From: Candidatus Enterousia avicola
GTDB lineage: Bacteria; Pseudomonadota; Alphaproteobacteria; Rs-D84
Reading direction: 5' to 3'
Length of the DNA stretch: 64,000 nt
Assembly (NCBI GenBank): GCA_018714345.1
Contig: DVNO01000006.1
Location: 7,233-71,232 of the forward strand
Shown here: positions 13,650-17,689 of the stretch, piece after piece
Layout of the letters: each line of letters starts with the position of its first letter
Position numbering within the stretch: position 1 is the first letter of the stretch
Program-made: the position numbers and the translations under genes
The notes under the pieces: generated by a model
Database searches by the model: none
Seen by the model: only the letters and a program-made list of their open reading frames with translations
What the model was told of the DNA's origin: nothing

Positions 13650-16600
13650 TTACTGCATCTCGGCACGACGTTCTGATATTTGTTTTTCAATACCACCATC
13701 ATGTTTTCCCACTTTGAAGGATGAATACTCTGTGGGTTTTGTTTCATACACATCAACTCCTTCAATAGACAAATATTCTTTTTCTATTGGTTGCATTTTC
13801 TCCCAATCCCATACAACATCATTTATTTCGGTATCTACGGTTATTGGTTTATGATTATAGTTATATATTTTTACACTTGCTTTCTGCGAACCTAACATAC
13901 CCAAGTCTGGGGCTTGAGAATCAATCAAATGAGATTGTTCATGTACTACTGTTTCTGAAATAAAGGATGCACTTGGTTTCCCTATAGCAGAATTTACATT
14001 ATACTGTCTTGCTGCATTAGCCAAAACATATGAATCGGGGTCTTCGTATACATATACATCCGTAAACAAACCACGTACATTTGTTTGTTCGTCCAACTTA
14101 TCATGAACTGTTTGTAAGAAAACACGCTTTTCATCCACAGACATATTAGAAAAACGCTGATATTGAGCAAATAAATCATCATCTTTTGCTACGATATCGG
14201 CAATTTCTTGACGTCTAGTTGTGGTAACTGCATCTGCAATTTCTTCTGGAATACTAGCATTTATTATTTTAGCTTTTTCATAATCTCTTGCAATAATATA
14301 TCCCTCTAGTATATTTTCCAATCCTTCTTGTTTTTCTATCAAAGCAATTTCTTCTGGTGTCTCGGGTATATGACTATAATAACTTTTTTGCAGCTTATTC
14401 ATCTGTTGTTGCAAATCTTGTAGTTCTGGTGACTCCCAATCTTTTGAACGAGGACGTCTGCCAAGTTTTGTGCTCGCCTCGTCTATAATTTTATCTCGTT
14501 CTGTGTGATAAACCGCTCTTCTTGCATCATCTAGTTTTTTTCTTTCCGCTTTTACTAACTCAATTTGGCTATTTACATCAGCAATATCATCAGCATAATC
14601 TGCTTCAATTGCCCTCATCTGTTTTGCGAGCTCTGGGTCGTATGTAGAATAAGGAGATGACACATATACTACAGGATCGTACTCTTTGTCTCCCATTCTC
14701 ACATAACCTGGTTCAAACGTTTTCCAACCTGCAACTGCCTTGTCGAATTCTGCTTCATTTGCAAACATCTTTTTGAAATCGTCAAAAGATTGATTTTTTG
14801 GGGCATACTGTTGATATGCTGCCCGTAGTTTTTTATCATAATTTATACCATCAGCCACATCATCTAATTTTGCCAATTTGCTGACTTTTTTGAGTTTCAT
14901 AAATTTGTTTGTTACATAACCTGGGTTATATGCAATACTTCCTATAATCAAAACAGGTTCAGACACCGGGTCAATATAATCCATCAATTTTAGATGCGAT
15001 TGTTGCATTGCACAGTCTGCCGGATTTGCATATACCGTTTGCCCGGATTCATTTTCACCACAGGCCACAAATTCCGTCTGTATCAATCCTATTAACCGGT
15101 CCATTGTTTCATCAACAACCGCTTGGTCATCAGTATTCAAATCACTCATTACTCCAGATAATGTCGCATAATGCTTTTCCAGTACATCTAGTGCACACTG
15201 TTCCGTTGTACACGCGTCCGCATCAGTCACAAAATTTACAAACTTCTTTGCAGCCTTATTAGTTAAACGTTGATGATTTGCATCCATTACATAATTTATG
15301 CCGATATCCGCAGCCAATAAAGCAACTCCGTTTATAATAACCGGAGCAGCAGCGCCACCAGTTACTATCGTAAAAAATGCCCCCCCAACTATCACCACAG
15401 CACCTGTAATATAGCCGACGGCAACATCACGTTTATACGTAGCTTCTGCATTACCCAATATACACGCACGAGCTTCATCATCATATCTTGCTCCTTTATC
15501 AGATCCTTTGGAGCGTAATACGGCATCCAATTTTTCACATTCTTCCTTCGTTGGACCACGACAACTTTCCCCTTTAAACGTGCCACCATTTATTATACAT
15601 TGCATCGCCTCCATACCAGTTGCAGCATCAGAATCAAAAGTCTCACTTATATCATCAAATACAAAATCTACTTGCTGACTGCCAACCGTACAAGACACTA
15701 CATAGTCTTTATCTGTTCCTAAACCTTCATTTAATATTTTTGGGGTGGCGTCACATACAATATAACTATCGTTTGGAAATTTTGTACGCAGATATTCTTC
15801 TACCATCGGTTTTGCTGTATCCATTCGCATTTGCAACCCAGCGTTATAAAACATACGACTATCTATACCATCTATCTGATTTAAGAAAATTGTTGATACT
15901 TCTTTTATTCCACGCGACAGTCTGCAATAGCCGTGATATTGAACGCTGTGACCTGTACGCTGTGCTAAGCTACTTACAACACCTTTACATAATTCACTGG
16001 ATATATCACACGACTGCCAAATATCTTCCGTATATTTATCACCCGTATTTACGATTTTTCCACCATATAACTCGCATATTGCCGTATTCTCACTGCTTGA
16101 TGATGTAGAATTTGGAGTCTGGTTCAAAGAATCAAATTCAAACTCATATGCCTTACCAGCTGCACTACACCTTATGTAATCTTGACCAAAGGTACTTATA
16201 TCTGCATCTGCATGACACGTCAAATTCAAACCGTGTAATTTACCATACGCATTTATAAACTCTCTGCCATTTGAACCTTGAGTTTTCAAACCAGCAAACT
16301 GTTTTATACATGTGCCACCACCATCACGACAAGACTTCTTGTATACCAAAAGATACCCATCACGCCCAACGCATTGATATTGCTTTCCGTCCGAACTTAA
16401 CGTCCAAACACCATTAAATAGATTAGCACAATTTTTCTGTGTCGCACTTTCTGTTCCAAAATTTGATTCAGAAATCATAAAGTTCAAAAAATTACGACAT
16501 AGGTTATAACCATCATTCGTCTGTATATTAAAACCAGATGCTATACATACTTTATAAAGACCTGTGACAGAAATTCTCCCGTCTGTCTGATCCATATTTT

Positions 16601-16754
16601 TTTGATATTCATCTGCAGCAGATTGTCTGTTTTCACTGGCAACCAGTTGATTTATTGCTTTTTCAACGACATCGCTCTTAAACTTTATCCAGTTCTCTGC
16701 ATGTGAAGGTATTGCAATCAAAATCAGAAAAAATGCAATCAGAAGTCTTTTCAT
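13650..16754 (-). CDS. Large exported protein: Cys-rich N-domain, hydrophobic hairpin, helical region, C-terminal HExxH
   Basis: The ATG at 16754 (MKRLLIAFFLILIAIPSHA signal peptide) overlaps the upstream stop in an ATGA motif. 18 Cys in the first ~430 aa. TM hairpin at about 15278-15410. VVHEQSHLID at 13929-13943. No family recognised. Confidence 0.7.
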   Translation of the reverse strand: MKRLLIAFFLILIAIPSHAENWIKFKSDVVEKAINQLVASENRQSAADEYQKNMDQTDGRISVTGLYKVCIASGFNIQTNDGYNLCRNFLNFMISESNFGTESATQKNCANLFNGVWTLSSDGKQYQCVGRDGYLLVYKKSCRDGGGTCIKQFAGLKTQGSNGREFINAYGKLHGLNLTCHADADISTFGQDYIRCSAAGKAYEFEFDSLNQTPNSTSSSSENTAICELYGGKIVNTGDKYTEDIWQSCDISSELCKGVVSSLAQRTGHSVQYHGYCRLSRGIKEVSTIFLNQIDGIDSRMFYNAGLQMRMDTAKPMVEEYLRTKFPNDSYIVCDATPKILNEGLGTDKDYVVSCTVGSQQVDFVFDDISETFDSDAATGMEAMQCIINGGTFKGESCRGPTKEECEKLDAVLRSKGSDKGARYDDEARACILGNAEATYKRDVAVGYITGAVVIVGGAFFTIVTGGAAAPVIINGVALLAADIGINYVMDANHQRLTNKAAKKFVNFVTDADACTTEQCALDVLEKHYATLSGVMSDLNTDDQAVVDETMDRLIGLIQTEFVACGENESGQTVYANPADCAMQQSHLKLMDYIDPVSEPVLIIGSIAYNPGYVTNKFMKLKKVSKLAKLDDVADGINYDKKLRAAYQQYAPKNQSFDDFKKMFANEAEFDKAVAGWKTFEPGYVRMGDKEYDPVVYVSSPYSTYDPELAKQMRAIEADYADDIADVNSQIELVKAERKKLDDARRAVYHTERDKIIDEASTKLGRRPRSKDWESPELQDLQQQMNKLQKSYYSHIPETPEEIALIEKQEGLENILEGYIIARDYEKAKIINASIPEEIADAVTTTRRQEIADIVAKDDDLFAQYQRFSNMSVDEKRVFLQTVHDKLDEQTNVRGLFTDVYVYEDPDSYVLANAARQYNVNSAIGKPSASFISETVVHEQSHLIDSQAPDLGMLGSQKASVKIYNYNHKPITVDTEINDVVWDWEKMQPIEKEYLSIEGVDVYETKPTEYSSFKVGKHDGGIEKQISERRAEMQ

Positions 16755-17689
16755 TTCAGTACCCCCGTGCATTTTTCCGCCACTTCCGCAACTTTCTTTA
16801 TAGCCGATATCTGCGTCGCATTAAATACTGTCGCCGTCGCAGAAGCCGCCGTAGTAAAACCGGCCAATACATTTGAAGCCGTATTCAAATTCTTTTCTTT
16901 TTGCTTGCCGACCTCCGTATTGTCATTTCGTGTTTTGTTTGTATTTGCTGTCGCAGATGTTATCGTACCAGCCAAACCAGTCGTAGCCCCTACAACAGAA
17001 GATATCATCGCACCTTTTGCCCTATCGTCTATCTTTGAAATGTCTACATACTTATATTCACTACATGCATCTACTATACTTTGTGCCTCTGATATATCTT
17101 CGCCATTTAACCGTGCCTGCATCATTGATTGTTGCAAATCATCAACTGCTGATATGCAACTATTTATCTGTTCCCTTAACCCAACACTTACTTTATTAGT
17201 TCCTGCAATTACTGCACCTGCTACATTAGTTGCCGTACTACCAGCCAACAAGCCTGTTCGCCAATTTCCTAAATTTTTAGATTGCTGGGTTAATTTATCT
17301 ATCTCTGATTGATAATCTTTTAGTTGTTGCGCAATAGAAGAATATTCAGCCTCAAATTCCGCTGTAAAAGCCTCTGGGTCAAAATCCCCACTTTCTTGCG
17401 CTTGATTTTTACTTTCTATTTCTCTCAGCTTTTCAAGCTTAATTTCCAATTCTTCTATCTTACTGTCTTTTGATGCCTTTACCACACCAGTTACTGTTGC
17501 GCCAACCCCCGTAGCTGTTCCAACACCAGTAACAGCCGTATTTATTCCCGCCATAGTCTTCAAACCAGACAACTCTTCGTCAATACCAACACACGCAGTA
17601 TATGTAGCACGTAATGCATCATACAAAGACAAAACTTCTGCCATTGCAGTAACTGGTAAAAACATTAAAAACACAGCTAAAAAACGCAC
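16751..17689 (-). CDS. Exported helical protein with four Gly/Ala/Thr-rich hydrophobic segments
   Basis: GTG start, 9 nt after aaggtgg. Signal peptide MRFLAVFLMFLPVTAMA. Coiled-coil stretches alternate with GINTAVTGVGTATGVGATVTGVV-type segments. Confidence 0.65.
   Translation of the reverse strand: MRFLAVFLMFLPVTAMAEVLSLYDALRATYTACVGIDEELSGLKTMAGINTAVTGVGTATGVGATVTGVVKASKDSKIEELEIKLEKLREIESKNQAQESGDFDPEAFTAEFEAEYSSIAQQLKDYQSEIDKLTQQSKNLGNWRTGLLAGSTATNVAGAVIAGTNKVSVGLREQINSCISAVDDLQQSMMQARLNGEDISEAQSIVDACSEYKYVDISKIDDRAKGAMISSVVGATTGLAGTITSATANTNKTRNDNTEVGKQKEKNLNTASNVLAGFTTAASATATVFNATQISAIKKVAEVAEKCTGVLK

What the first reader, a model, noticed from the sequence alone, without database searches (positions are those of the whole stretch)
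13650..17689. Translationally coupled pair of exported proteins: Gly/Ala/Thr-zipper helical protein plus 1,034-aa Cys-rich, double-TM, HExxH protein (candidate two-component membrane-active toxin/effector)
Seen: the 312-aa product of 16751-17689 has a Sec signal peptide. It alternates charged coiled-coil stretches with four ~20-aa uncharged Gly/Ala/Thr/Val segments that have small-xxx-small spacing. These are GINTAVTGVGTATGVGATVTGVV, LLAGSTATNVAGAVIAGT, MISSVVGATTGLAGTITSATA and NVLAGFTTAASATATVF. Its TGA overlaps the ATG of the next gene (ATGA, 16754-16751), which argues for stoichiometric co-expression. The partner has a signal peptide and an N-terminal ~430 aa with 18 Cys, including three C-x3-[FYI]-[NG]-G motifs (CANLFNG, CELYGG, CIINGG). 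It then has a hydrophobic helical hairpin (about 15278-15410), a ~450-aa charged helical region, and a single HExxH (VVHEQSHLID, 13929-13943) about 95 aa from the end. Inference: glycine-zipper-like amphipathic segments are typical of membrane-inserting or pore-forming proteins. A terminal HExxH module after a translocation-like hairpin resembles modular toxins. I recognise no named family for either protein. No strong terminator or promoter separates the pair from the TetR operon upstream, so TetR-dependent read-through is possible.
Basis: partly seen in the sequence, partly recalled or inferred. Interest (0 to 1): 0.72.

Follow-up and report, generated by a model that had tools for sequence, protein, structure and literature searches.

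The report
Swappable-toxin secretion pair in gut Alphaproteobacteria
Two overlapping genes of an uncultured, tiny-genome gut bacterium encode a conserved membrane-type helper and a large exported protein whose front 630 residues stay constant while its end is exchanged between strains for different toxin-like enzymes, so this looks like an undescribed family of polymorphic toxins or effectors.

Summary
The two ORFs, both signal peptides, the ATGA overlap, four Gly/Ala/Thr segments, 22 cysteines, the hydrophobic hairpin and HExxH are all present and conserved in relatives.

The interpretation needs reframing. The 1,034-aa protein is modular. Residues 1-~630 form a conserved delivery module: a Cys-rich domain, the hairpin, and a closing NPGYVT..KF.KLKKVSKLAK motif. 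After that motif, homologues up to 92% identical carry unrelated C-termini. I found at least 23 classes, including Zeta-toxin, kinase-like and possibly J-domain ends. These ends are almost cysteine-free (0.10% against 3.56%).

Zeta-type ends are always followed by a private 180-aa gene plus an HD hydrolase, which look like immunity genes. The window's HExxH end has no such gene.

The 312-aa gene sits directly upstream, overlapping the partner's start codon, in about 90 loci. It is far more conserved than its partner.

The hairpin weakly resembles the membrane-inserting hairpin of Hbl-L1, Nhe and MakA pore toxins. The whole fold does not.

The host is Candidatus Enterousia / Rs-D84, with genomes under 1 Mb and a partner-dependent lifestyle. 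The closest analogue is Neisseria MafA/MafB.

No Pfam, NCBIfam, PDB or literature record was found. Verdict: a new variant of polymorphic toxin systems. The mechanism of delivery and the target are inferred, not shown.

The parts
17711..17740 (-). Promoter-like block: -35 TTGCGG (17740-17735), 18-nt spacer, -10 TATACT (17716-17711)
   Evidence: Conserved together with the pair in L002, L003, L007 and L008, whose upstream sequences are otherwise unrelated. More distant relatives have TGnTATAAT preceded by terminator hairpins. It was not listed by the consensus scan. Function is inferred.
16751..17689 (-). Gene for the conserved 312-aa exported accessory protein (GTG start; Shine-Dalgarno-like GGGGAAAG at 17697-17690)
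   Evidence: More than 2,057 homologue clusters. 50-69% identity is kept where the partner keeps only 22-30%. Four invariant Cys: C33, C178, C209, C307. No Pfam, NCBIfam or PDB relative.
17639..17689 (-). Signal peptide of the small protein (aa 1-17, cleavage after AMA)
   Evidence: Read directly from the sequence. No predictor was available.
17480..17551 (-). Gly/Ala/Thr segment 1 (aa 47-70, AGINTAVTGVGTATGVGATVTGVV)
   Evidence: Mean column conservation 0.80. Helical periodicity: hydrophobic moment is highest at 100 degrees.
17201..17254 (-). Gly/Ala/Thr segment 2 (aa 146-163)
   Evidence: conservation 0.85, moment peak at 90-100 degrees.
16946..17014 (-). Gly/Ala/Thr segment 3 (aa 226-248)
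   Evidence: conservation 0.80. G234, G238 and G241 are invariant.
16823..16879 (-). Gly/Ala/Thr segment 4 (aa 271-289)
   Evidence: conservation 0.81. N273 and F289 are invariant.
16751..16754 (-). ATGA overlap: stop codon of the small gene overlaps the start codon of the big gene
   Evidence: The same register is kept in 15 of 16 loci and in nearly all of 79 loci.
13650..16754 (-). Gene for the 1,034-aa modular exported protein
15435..16697 (-). Cys-rich N-terminal ectodomain (aa 20-440; 18 Cys; three helix + C-x3-x-[NG]-G + beta-hairpin units)
   Evidence: All Cys invariant. AF2 pLDDT is mostly 70-90, with no PDB fold match. Weak internal repeat between aa 189-233 and 347-392, P=3.5e-4. The first ~100 aa are the part most widely kept in distant and short partners.
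15285..15428 (-). Hydrophobic helical hairpin (aa 443-490) with a central TGGAAAP turn and invariant D483
   Evidence: Present in nearly all long partners. The profile's top PDB hits are the hydrophobic head hairpins of Hbl L1 (E=0.0018), Nhe L1, MakA and SmhB. NCBIfam HblD gives E=1.4e-5 but only 24 bits against a 650-bit cutoff.
14865..15284 (-). Post-hairpin helical region with 4 invariant Cys (C515, C520, C565, C581). It ends in the demarcation motif SEPVLIIGSIAYNPGYVTNKFMKLKKVSKLAK (aa 598-630; 14865-14963)
   Evidence: Homology to many relatives stops at aa 628-638.
14277..14864 (-). Cys-free charged helical linker or pre-cargo region (aa 631-826)
   Evidence: A second module boundary lies at aa ~780-826 (P0038, P0049, P0087, P0089). 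AF2 predicts long helices with pLDDT 70-90.
13653..14276 (-). Cargo domain of this allele: zincin-like HExxH domain (aa 827-1034; HEQSH at 13929-13943; E1009 at 13728-13730)
   Evidence: Invariant H938, E939, H942, D945, G955, E1009 and S1011. 209 representative clusters carry this domain, nearly always at the extreme C-terminus of proteins of 1,000-2,600 aa that have a signal peptide, many Cys and a hairpin. No Pfam or PDB family: only one sub-threshold DUF6782 hit in a relative and nothing.
13222..13684 (.). Downstream block shared at 98% identity with locus L008. It includes the last codons of the tail (…ERRAEMQ*)
   Evidence: L008 carries a different HExxH sub-type end. Behind its stop codon it still has the last 11 codons of an HEQSH-type tail followed by this block, which is a recombination scar.
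12813..12888 (+). tRNA-Asn bordering the locus; integration site in relatives
   Evidence: In L001 only 46 nt of its 3' part are repeated, next to an integrase island.

Best explanation
The pair is a Sec-exported polymorphic toxin/effector system of the gut alphaproteobacterial lineage Candidatus Enterousia / Rs-D84.

Shown:
- The big protein has two parts. The first is a conserved, disulfide-rich delivery module (aa 1-~630): a Cys-rich domain, a hydrophobic helical hairpin, a 4-Cys helical region, and a closing NPGYVT..KF.KLKKVSKLAK motif.
- The second part is a Cys-free cargo region that is exchanged by recombination between strains and species. In this window the cargo is a zincin-like HExxH domain. 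In relatives it is a Zeta-toxin/P-loop kinase, a Kdo/WaaP-like kinase, a possible J-domain, or one of many unknown domains.
- The 312-aa gene is always immediately upstream, usually with the ATGA overlap. It is non-polymorphic and much more conserved than its partner.

Inferred:
- After Sec export and disulfide formation, the small protein's four conserved small-xxx-small helices make it a membrane-embedded or membrane-inserting helper. It binds the conserved N-terminus of its partner and exports, anchors or presents it.
- The Cys-rich domain binds a target cell.
- The Hbl-like hairpin inserts into the target membrane.
- The unfolded, Cys-free cargo is passed into the target cytosol, where the HExxH domain would act as a metalloprotease.

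Whether the target is a bacterium or a eukaryotic cell is open.
For: 1. Sharp loss of homology at aa 628-638 in about 70 of 118 homologues, including one that is 92% identical up to that point. At least 23 C-terminal classes. A conserved demarcation motif precedes the divergence.
2. Strain-level swap. L001 is the same species (flanking genes dS 0.03-0.06, flanking DNA 97-98.6% identical) but has an unrelated tail. dS rises to 0.20 in the N-module with dN/dS 0.11, which indicates imported alleles. There is a recombination scar in L008.
3. Some cargo is recognisable: Zeta_toxin/AAA_33 (E=3e-27); Kdo kinase-like (21.9 bits against a 21.3-bit cutoff); a sub-threshold DnaJ match with an HPD motif. 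All of these need cytosolic substrates.
4. Zeta-type tails in three different genomic contexts are each followed by the same 180-aa gene (75-93% identity). In the two contexts where sequence continues, an HD_4 hydrolase follows as well. Neither gene is found in any other of the ~100 loci.
5. Cys content is 3.56% in the N-module and 0.10% in tails, and 119 of 154 tails are Cys-free.
6. Conservation of the pair and its junction, with its own promoter-like block.
7. Hairpin resemblance to alpha-PFT head hairpins.
8. The MafA/MafB architecture, as described in PMC3482391, matches point for point: an upstream conserved secreted accessory, then a signal peptide, a lineage-specific N-domain and a polymorphic C-terminus.
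9. The host lineage is predicted to depend on partner cells (PMC12306168). It is diderm: BamA and an OMP are encoded in the window.
Against: - The window's own HExxH allele, and several other tail classes (L001, L002), have no co-oriented downstream gene that could be an immunity gene.
- No arrays of orphan cassettes were seen. There are only two free-standing tails whose genomic context is unknown.
- HExxH is the commonest end and persists in relatives whose N-modules have diverged to ~22% identity. It could therefore be an ancestral, non-toxic function.
- No secretion route across the outer membrane was identified.
- The small protein's AF2 model is poor (pLDDT 43), and neither protein has a fold match.
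- The small protein also pairs with short partners that lack hairpin and cargo, so it cannot act only as the hairpin's pore partner.
- All functional steps are inferred from sequence.
Confidence: 0.68

Rival explanations
1. Two-component alpha-pore-forming toxin. The small protein and the hairpin-bearing big protein together are the toxin. They form a lytic pore as Hbl/Nhe/Mak or YaxAB components do, and the C-terminal domains are accessory.
For: The hairpin profile's best PDB hits are Hbl L1, Nhe L1, MakA and SmhB head hairpins. The small protein has four conserved, marginally hydrophobic small-xxx-small helices. The genes are translationally coupled. The window's allele has no immunity gene.
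Against: Foldseek finds no ClyA-type fold for the big protein. Profile searches find no PDB relative for the small protein. The resemblance is limited to about 45 hydrophobic residues and could be compositional. This model does not explain the at least 23 swappable Cys-free enzyme-like ends, or the cognate genes behind Zeta-type ends. The small protein also pairs with partners that have no hairpin.
Confidence: 0.12
2. Partner-cell interface of an obligate symbiont or parasite. The pair is primarily an attachment and conduit device: the Cys-rich domain acts as adhesin, and the hairpin plus the small protein form a channel into the partner cell. Its purpose is to obtain metabolites, and the variable ends tune host manipulation rather than killing.
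For: Rs-D84/Enterousia genomes are under 1 Mb, lack glycolytic steps and standard transporters, and are predicted to take metabolites from other cells (PMC12306168). The locus is widespread, sometimes in tandem copies. Most tails have no immunity gene. Kinase-like and J-domain-like ends resemble host-manipulating effectors.
Against: There is no direct evidence of any partner organism. The Zeta-type cargo with a private downstream gene pair looks like classical toxin/immunity. The sharp strain-level polymorphism is typical of competition systems.
Confidence: 0.13
3. Housekeeping envelope complex. The big protein is an inner-membrane-anchored periplasmic metalloprotease, held by its hairpin, and the small protein is its 4-TM membrane partner. 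The complex serves envelope protein quality control.
For: The Cys distribution fits both proteins having periplasmic domains on either side of membrane helices. HExxH is the commonest end. The locus keeps synteny next to fabI in several genomes. It is retained in strongly reduced genomes.
Against: The protease domain is replaced by unrelated domains in near-identical backgrounds. Zeta toxin, kinase-like and J-like ends cannot work in the periplasm, which has no ATP and no Hsp70. The N-domain diverges fast while the partner stays conserved. There is no match to any envelope family.
Confidence: 0.07

Closest known systems
Neisseria MafA/MafB polymorphic toxin loci (Sec/T2SS-class polymorphic toxins; Zhang et al. 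2012, PMC3482391)
   Same: An upstream, non-polymorphic, secreted accessory gene. Downstream, a protein with a signal peptide, a lineage-restricted conserved N-domain and a polymorphic C-terminal toxin. Immunity genes follow at least some alleles.
   Different: There is no sequence relationship: no DUF1020/MafB-N or MafA hit. The small protein has no lipobox. Instead it has four glycine-zipper-like helices. The delivery module is far larger, is disulfide-rich and contains a hydrophobic hairpin. No orphan cassette arrays were seen, and many alleles, including the window's, lack an adjacent immunity gene.
CdiA/CdiB and Rhs polymorphic toxins
   Same: A conserved body, a short conserved demarcation motif (compare VENN or PxxxxDPxGL), then an exchangeable C-terminal toxin. 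Alleles differ between strains.
   Different: There is no TPS domain, FHA repeats, YD repeats or Omp85 partner next to the locus. Export is by a plain Sec signal peptide.
ClyA-family tripartite alpha-pore-forming toxins (Hbl L1, NheB-type L1, MakA, SmhB/AhlB)
   Same: A G/A/V/T-rich hydrophobic hairpin of about 45 residues with a central TGGxAxP-like turn. These proteins are the best PDB sequence hits of the hairpin profile. They are exported by Sec and encoded with partner components.
   Different: The match covers only the hairpin: 24 bits against the 650-bit HblD cutoff. Foldseek finds no ClyA-type helical bundle. Those toxins have no Cys-rich domain and no swappable enzymatic C-terminus.
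Single-chain AB toxins with a central hydrophobic translocation hairpin and a C-terminal enzyme (CNF1, Pasteurella multocida toxin). This comparison rests on my own knowledge and was not tested here.
   Same: The order of functions along one ~1,000-aa chain: receptor-binding N-part, two hydrophobic helices, then a C-terminal catalytic domain that acts in the target cytosol.
   Different: There is no detectable homology. Those toxins lack Sec signal peptides, cysteine-rich domains, polymorphic ends and a coupled partner gene.
Zeta/PezT toxins with epsilon/PezA antitoxins
   Same: Relatives of the window's protein end in a Zeta_toxin/AAA_33 domain (E=3e-27) and are followed by a dedicated small gene.
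   Different: Here the kinase domain is fused to an exported delivery module. The downstream 180-aa protein has no Pfam or PADLOC family and comes with an HD_4 hydrolase. The window's own allele has no Zeta domain.
Glycine-zipper membrane toxins (VacA N-terminus, Caulobacter CdzC/CdzD, T7SS EsxX C-terminus). The comparison rests on my own knowledge plus the abstract listed.
   Same: Conserved tandem small-xxx-small (G/A/S/T) helices of marginal hydrophobicity.
   Different: No homology was detected. The small protein is 312 aa with four such helices separated by charged helices and two probable disulfides. It is not polymorphic and has no immunity gene.

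Membership tests
Polymorphic toxin systems (as defined in PMC3482391) | Close homologues share the N-terminal trafficking region but carry unrelated C-terminal domains | tested here: met
   Homology ends at aa 628-638 in about 70 of 118 homologues, at up to 92% N-terminal identity. At least 23 C-terminal classes. Same-species swap in L001.
Polymorphic toxin systems | C-terminal domains include recognised toxin folds | tested here: met
   Zeta_toxin E=3e-27 in P0022 and 6 other clusters. Kdo-kinase-like domain just above cutoff. Most classes, including the window's HExxH domain, match no family.
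Polymorphic toxin systems | A cognate immunity gene lies immediately downstream and co-varies with the toxin domain | tested here: inconclusive
   Met for Zeta-type ends: a 180-aa gene (plus an HD_4 hydrolase where sequence continues) in 3 contexts and nowhere else. Suggestive for some HExxH loci, which have tightly linked ~100-aa ORFs in L027/L028/L063 and L012/L013. Not met for the window's allele or for L001 and L002.
Polymorphic toxin systems | Stand-alone (orphan) toxin cassettes that feed recombination | tested here: inconclusive
   No orphan arrays in ~100 loci. Two free-standing tails (P0240, P0241) start at the breakpoint, but their context could not be fetched. A displaced-tail scar in L008 shows replacement.
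Polymorphic toxin systems | A conserved motif marks the junction before the variable end | tested here: met
   SEPVLII[GA]S..YNPG[YF]VT.[KR]F.K.K..SK.AK, then divergence.
MafA/MafB | MafB-N (DUF1020) domain in the toxin, and a MafA lipoprotein with a lipobox upstream | tested here: not met
   No such Pfam or NCBIfam hits at E<=1. The small protein is cleaved after AMA, followed by E, with no Cys at +1. Only the architecture is shared.
ClyA-family alpha-PFTs (Hbl/Nhe/Mak/Smh) | Hydrophobic head hairpin | tested here: met
   Hairpin profile: Hbl L1 7nmq E=0.0018, with Nhe L1, MakA and SmhB in the top 15. The match is weak and possibly compositional.
ClyA-family alpha-PFTs (Hbl/Nhe/Mak/Smh) | Elongated ClyA-type helical bundle; family-level sequence score | tested here: not met
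   NCBIfam HblD gives 24 bits against a 650-bit cutoff. No Foldseek hit with E<0.4. Nothing for the small protein.
Zincin metallopeptidases | HExxH with a conserved downstream third ligand | tested here: met
   H938, E939 and H942 are invariant. D945 and E1009 are invariant candidates for the third ligand. One relative (P0039) has HExxxH.
Zincin metallopeptidases | Membership of a curated peptidase family or a zincin fold match | tested here: not met
   No Pfam or NCBIfam hit for the window's tail. The PDB profile search is empty. Foldseek finds nothing. There is only a sub-threshold DUF6782 hit in relative P0254.
Zincin metallopeptidases | Zinc binding and proteolytic activity | not testable with these tools
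   Needs purified protein.
Glycine-zipper membrane proteins | Tandem small-xxx-small motifs on a helical face in conserved, marginally hydrophobic segments | tested here: met
   Four segments with mean Kyte-Doolittle hydropathy 1.1-1.3, moment peak at 90-100 degrees, and invariant Gly/Ala/Thr/Asn positions. Membrane insertion itself was not tested.

The most novel reading that the evidence does not exclude
The conserved small protein and the Hbl-like hairpin module may form a self-contained protein-translocating device that needs only Sec. It would be a previously unrecognised delivery route. Ultra-reduced, partner-dependent Rs-D84 Alphaproteobacteria would use it to inject exchangeable enzymes (protease, kinases, J-domain) into the cells they live on, whether bacterial or eukaryotic. 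It would then be the key host-interaction organ of this uncultured lineage.
Probability: 0.2. Interest if true: 0.85.

Novelty: new variant of a known kind. Interest (0 to 1): 0.68.

Why it matters
The Rs-D84/Enterousia lineage is common in human and animal guts. Its genomes are under 1 Mb and it has never been cultured. How it interacts with the cells it presumably depends on is unknown.

This locus is a conserved, sometimes tandemly repeated, fast-recombining 4-kb module in such small genomes. That makes it a prime candidate for the interaction, whether as a weapon or as an injector.

For toxin biology it adds four things:
- a new delivery module (disulfide-rich binder, alpha-PFT-like hairpin and a glycine-zipper partner);
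- a catalogue of at least 20 cargo domains that match no Pfam family or solved structure, or only sub-threshold ones;
- a new HExxH family with 209 representative clusters;
- a Zeta-type toxin whose putative protection includes an HD hydrolase.

Each of these can be tested by ordinary expression experiments.

Tried and rejected
- Pfam, NCBIfam and PADLOC scans of both proteins gave nothing above cutoff.
- PDB sequence and profile searches with the full-length big protein, the small protein (two alignments), the HExxH tail and three other tails gave only coiled-coil or compositional noise, apart from the hairpin.
- AF2 of the big protein (pLDDT 68) with Foldseek against PDB and BFVD gave no hit with E<=0.001. 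AF2 of the small protein was too poor to search (pLDDT 43).
- A word-indexed homologue search with the tail alone returned nothing, although full-length homologues exist. I treat this as a tool limitation and discarded it. The exhaustive profile search replaced it.
- Beta-barrel stem idea for the Gly/Ala/Thr segments: rejected, because the periodicity is helical.
- DUF5677 genes behind L001 and L002 as immunity genes: rejected. They lie beyond a tRNA, inside integrase or restriction-modification islands.
- The 148-150-aa ORFs behind L014 and L015 lie antisense to a long gene and are probably spurious.
- Positive selection on the N-module: not supported (dN/dS 0.11). The raised dS points to recombination instead.
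- Phage or plasmid carriage: no hits in the phage or plasmid collections. Two IMG/VR contigs carry a short-partner variant next to a phage tail gene.
- The promoter/terminator consensus scan was no better than shuffles.
- A 4-TM inner-membrane topology for the small protein fits the Cys positions and the positive-inside rule only weakly. By my own count the chance probability is about 0.09, so the question is left open.

Full report
OBSERVATION

Both ORFs exist as described. The small gene (16751-17689, minus strand, GTG start) ends ...CTG AAA TGA. The ATG of the big gene (13650-16754) uses the last A of AAA and the TG of TGA. A GGGGG run lies 7 nt upstream of that ATG.

An in-frame ATG 18 nt further upstream is a by-product of the conserved Lys-Cys codons of the small protein. 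It is the less likely start.

Both products begin with typical Sec signal peptides (AMA|E and SHA|E), read directly from the sequence.

The four Gly/Ala/Thr segments, the 22 cysteines (18 in the first 431 aa), the three C-x3-x-[NG]-G motifs, the hairpin (aa 443-490) and HEQSH (13929-13943) are all at the stated places. They are invariant or nearly so in relatives that share the same domain.

WHO CARRIES IT

All named homologues come from uncultured gut or rumen Alphaproteobacteria. Genome records name Candidatus Enterousia.

This lineage (order Rs-D84) has genomes under 1 Mb. It lacks respiration and standard transporters, and it is predicted to live as an obligate symbiont or parasite taking metabolites from other cells (PMC12306168).

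The window encodes BamA, an OMP beta-barrel and PBP1a, so the cell has an outer membrane.

THE BIG PROTEIN IS MODULAR

BLAST of the window's protein against its 118 homologues shows two behaviours:
- About 36 align end to end, at 44-89% identity.
- About 70 align only over residues 1 to 628-638, at up to 92% identity, and are then unrelated. Their total lengths run from 850 to 1,504 aa.

The conserved part ends in the motif SEPVLII[GA]S..YNPG[YF]VT.[KR]F.K.K..SK.AK. After it the sequences diverge, often through Ala/Asp-rich linkers.

Clustering the C-termini of 154 proteins gives at least 23 classes. The recognisable ones are:
- Zeta_toxin/AAA_33 (E=3e-27);
- a Kdo/WaaP-kinase-like domain, just above cutoff;
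- a sub-threshold DnaJ match with an ...YHPDK... motif.

The rest match nothing in Pfam or the PDB.

Cysteine content is 3.56% in the conserved module and 0.10% in the variable ends, and 119 of 154 ends have none. That pattern fits a disulfide-stabilised extracytoplasmic body carrying a cargo that must stay unfoldable and work in a reducing cytosol. The need of kinases and a J-domain for ATP and Hsp70 points the same way. This last step is inference.

THE EXCHANGE IS RECENT

Locus L001 is the same species as the window:
- flanking DNA is 97-98.6% identical;
- flanking genes have dS 0.03-0.06;
- the small protein is 99% identical.

Similarity nevertheless stops inside the big gene at window position 15004, and the tail is unrelated.

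dS rises to 0.08 in the small gene and 0.20 in the N-module, with dN/dS 0.11. This indicates imported alleles rather than positive selection.

Locus L008 has a different HExxH sub-type. Behind its stop codon it retains the last 11 codons of an HEQSH-type tail. These are followed by a block 98-100% identical to window 13222-13684, which is a replacement scar.

The locus abuts tRNA-Asn (12813-12888). In L001 and L002 that tRNA has captured integrase or restriction-modification islands.

IMMUNITY-LIKE GENES

Zeta-type ends occur in three unrelated genomic contexts (L003, L096, L097/L098). Each is followed within 16-105 nt by the same 180-aa cytoplasmic protein (75-93% identity). In the two contexts where sequence continues, an HD_4 hydrolase follows as well. 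L096 has a further 141-aa paralogue.

None of these genes occurs in any other of the ~100 loci. This is the co-variation expected of toxin and immunity.

Some HExxH loci have tightly linked ~100-aa ORFs: L027/L028/L063 with a gap of -4 to 11 nt, and L012/L013.

The window's allele has none. Downstream lies only a convergent, decayed ORF (13061-13609) that fuses a Peptidase_S51 fragment to a Fic C-terminal fragment. L001 and L002 also lack a candidate. This is the main weakness of a pure interbacterial-toxin reading.

THE HExxH END

Within its class, H938, E939, H942, D945, G955, E1009 and S1011 are invariant.

An exhaustive profile search of 1.84 billion representatives found 209 clusters. Nearly all carry the domain at the extreme C-terminus of proteins of 1,000-2,600 aa. 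These proteins again have a signal peptide, 20-47 cysteines and a hydrophobic hairpin, even where their N-termini are no longer alignable.

HExxH is therefore the commonest, probably ancestral, cargo of a large superfamily. It matches no curated peptidase family or solved structure. The only trace is one sub-threshold DUF6782 ('putative metallopeptidase') hit in a relative.

THE HAIRPIN

A stretch of 30-50 hydrophobic residues with a central T-G-G-x-A-x-P turn is present in nearly all long partners.

A profile of this region finds the hydrophobic head hairpin of Hbl L1 as its best PDB hit (7nmq, E=0.0018). Nhe L1, MakA (two entries) and SmhB are also among the top 15. NCBIfam HblD (E=1.4e-5, 24 bits against a 650-bit cutoff) and a single-sequence search agree.

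The resemblance is confined to the hairpin and may be convergent. Foldseek finds no ClyA-type fold. I take it as support for 'inserts into membranes like an alpha-PFT head', not for membership of that family.

THE SMALL PROTEIN

It has more than 2,057 homologue clusters.

From the big-protein side it is directly upstream in 15 of 16 loci. From its own side, nearly all of 79 metagenomic loci show a downstream signal-peptide-bearing, Cys-rich partner whose start overlaps or lies within 2 nt of its stop codon.

It keeps 50-69% identity where the partner's N-module keeps 22-30%.

Its Gly/Ala/Thr segments are its most conserved parts and have helical periodicity. Four invariant cysteines suggest two disulfides.

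It has no relative in Pfam, NCBIfam, PADLOC or the PDB, and AF2 fails on the monomer.

About a quarter of complete partners are short (230-470 aa), Cys-rich proteins with no hairpin and no cargo. The part of the partner most widely conserved is its first ~100 residues.

I therefore infer that the small protein is a general helper that recognises the partner's N-terminus. It could be an anchor, an exporter or a membrane-insertion partner, but it is not exclusively the hairpin's pore subunit. Which membrane it sits in is unresolved.

TRANSCRIPTION

The consensus scan is uninformative.

However, the block TTGCGG-18 nt-TATACT (17740-17711) is conserved with the pair in four loci whose upstream DNA is otherwise unrelated. 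More distant relatives have TGnTATAAT elements behind terminator hairpins. The pair also sits in many different neighbourhoods.

It is therefore an autonomous unit, and TetR-driven read-through is not needed to explain its expression.

COMPARISON WITH WHAT IS KNOWN

The architecture matches the Sec-dependent class of polymorphic toxins. It matches Neisseria MafA/MafB most closely: an upstream conserved secreted accessory, and a toxin with a signal peptide, a lineage-specific N-domain and a polymorphic C-terminus (PMC3482391). There is no sequence relationship to either Maf protein.

It differs by the disulfide-rich body, the alpha-PFT-like hairpin, the glycine-zipper partner, the patchy presence of immunity genes, and the lack of orphan arrays.

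Literature searches for the lineage combined with toxins, and for this combination of features, found no description.

VERDICT

The best explanation is an undescribed family of polymorphic toxins or effectors with a dedicated helper (confidence about 0.7 for the modular toxin/effector nature). The delivery mechanism and the target are inferred only.

Rival readings are a lytic two-component pore, a symbiont's host-interface device, and a housekeeping envelope protease. All remain possible at lower probability.

Noticed in passing
window 13061-13609 (+): A 182-aa ORF that fuses an N-terminal Peptidase_S51 fragment (aa 28-108) to the C-terminal end of a Fic domain with a degenerate motif (QPFEDGNKRTAR). 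Most of it (13222-13609, within the 13222-13684 shared block), including the fusion point, is 98% identical in L008, so it is older debris at a recombination hot spot and probably a pseudogene.
   Followed up: partly
window 12813-12888 (+); L001 11005-11050: tRNA-Asn directly downstream of the locus. In L001 only a 46-nt copy of its 3' part (window 12844-12889) is shared, and an island follows with DUF5677, HTH_17 and a phage-type integrase. In L002 a tRNA-like sequence is followed by DUF5677, a restriction-modification system and a resolvase. The tRNA is an integration site.
   Followed up: partly
L096 8073-9600; L097 8064-9153; L003 8951-9409: Behind Zeta-toxin-type ends there is a conserved 180-aa protein with no family, followed by an HD_4 (RelA/SpoT-type HD) hydrolase in L096 and L097/L098 (the L003 contig ends inside the 180-aa gene). 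L096 also has a 141-aa paralogue of the first gene. This may be two-layer protection: a binder plus an enzyme that reverses the kinase product.
   Followed up: partly
L019, L053 and L018 (C-terminal parts of the partner genes): Some cargo regions contain ...Y(R/K)..A.(E/K)YHPD(K/T)... motifs inside Ala/Asp-rich linkers. Pfam DnaJ scores E=2e-4, below cutoff. A J-domain on an exported protein would imply action on Hsp70 in a target cytosol.
   Followed up: partly
L061 6955-8325, L064 2791-4155, L099 6951-8303 and the two genes after each: A variant of the pair in which the partner is only ~450 aa: Cys-rich, ending in ...LEF[IV]FDDIC..., with no hairpin and no cargo. It is followed by two Cys-free paralogous proteins of 258-327 aa with 1-2 hydrophobic segments. 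In the IMG/VR contig L099 this variant lies about 3.5 kb from a P2 gpD-like tail gene and a lysozyme-like gene.
   Followed up: partly
L043, L066, L068, L073, L084 (gene after the small gene): Another short partner type of ~290 aa, ending in a conserved ...L[ST]..E...L.E.I..IEGW.K.GT...F domain. It has no similarity to the window's big protein.
   Followed up: no
L027 5532-6782; L089 632-2065; L090 1917-3350: Tail-like sequences lie immediately upstream of the small gene. This means a second big gene ends there, so some genomes carry the pair in tandem copies.
   Followed up: partly
window 19473-20055 versus L001: About 580 bp present in the window are absent from the otherwise 97-98.6% identical L001. 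This truncates the CMD/cupin gene (window 19399-20223, 274 aa) to a 76-aa ORF in L001.
   Followed up: no
P0039 (relative), motif region aligned to window aa 938-942: One relative reads HENAGH (HExxxH) where all others have HExxH. This would change the metal-site spacing, so the domain may be an inactive variant.
   Followed up: no
window 17756-18382 (-) and 21907-23175 (-): A 208-aa protein with no signal peptide and a 422-aa lipoprotein (lipobox ...LSAC) have no Pfam or NCBIfam family. Both are conserved in L001. The 208-aa gene is not linked to the pair in other genomes.
   Followed up: partly
P0099 / L004 8001-12515: A 1,504-aa homologue, 48% identical over the N-module, with a weak Kdo-kinase-like stretch. 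It is the only big-type gene without a small gene anywhere within 8 kb.
   Followed up: partly
window aa 189-233 and 347-392 of the big protein (about 16056-16190 and 15579-15716): A weak internal repeat: DY[IV]xC..G....[FV][ED]F.FD[DS][IL] beta-hairpin units (hhalign P=3.5e-4). This suggests the Cys-rich domain arose by duplication.
   Followed up: partly
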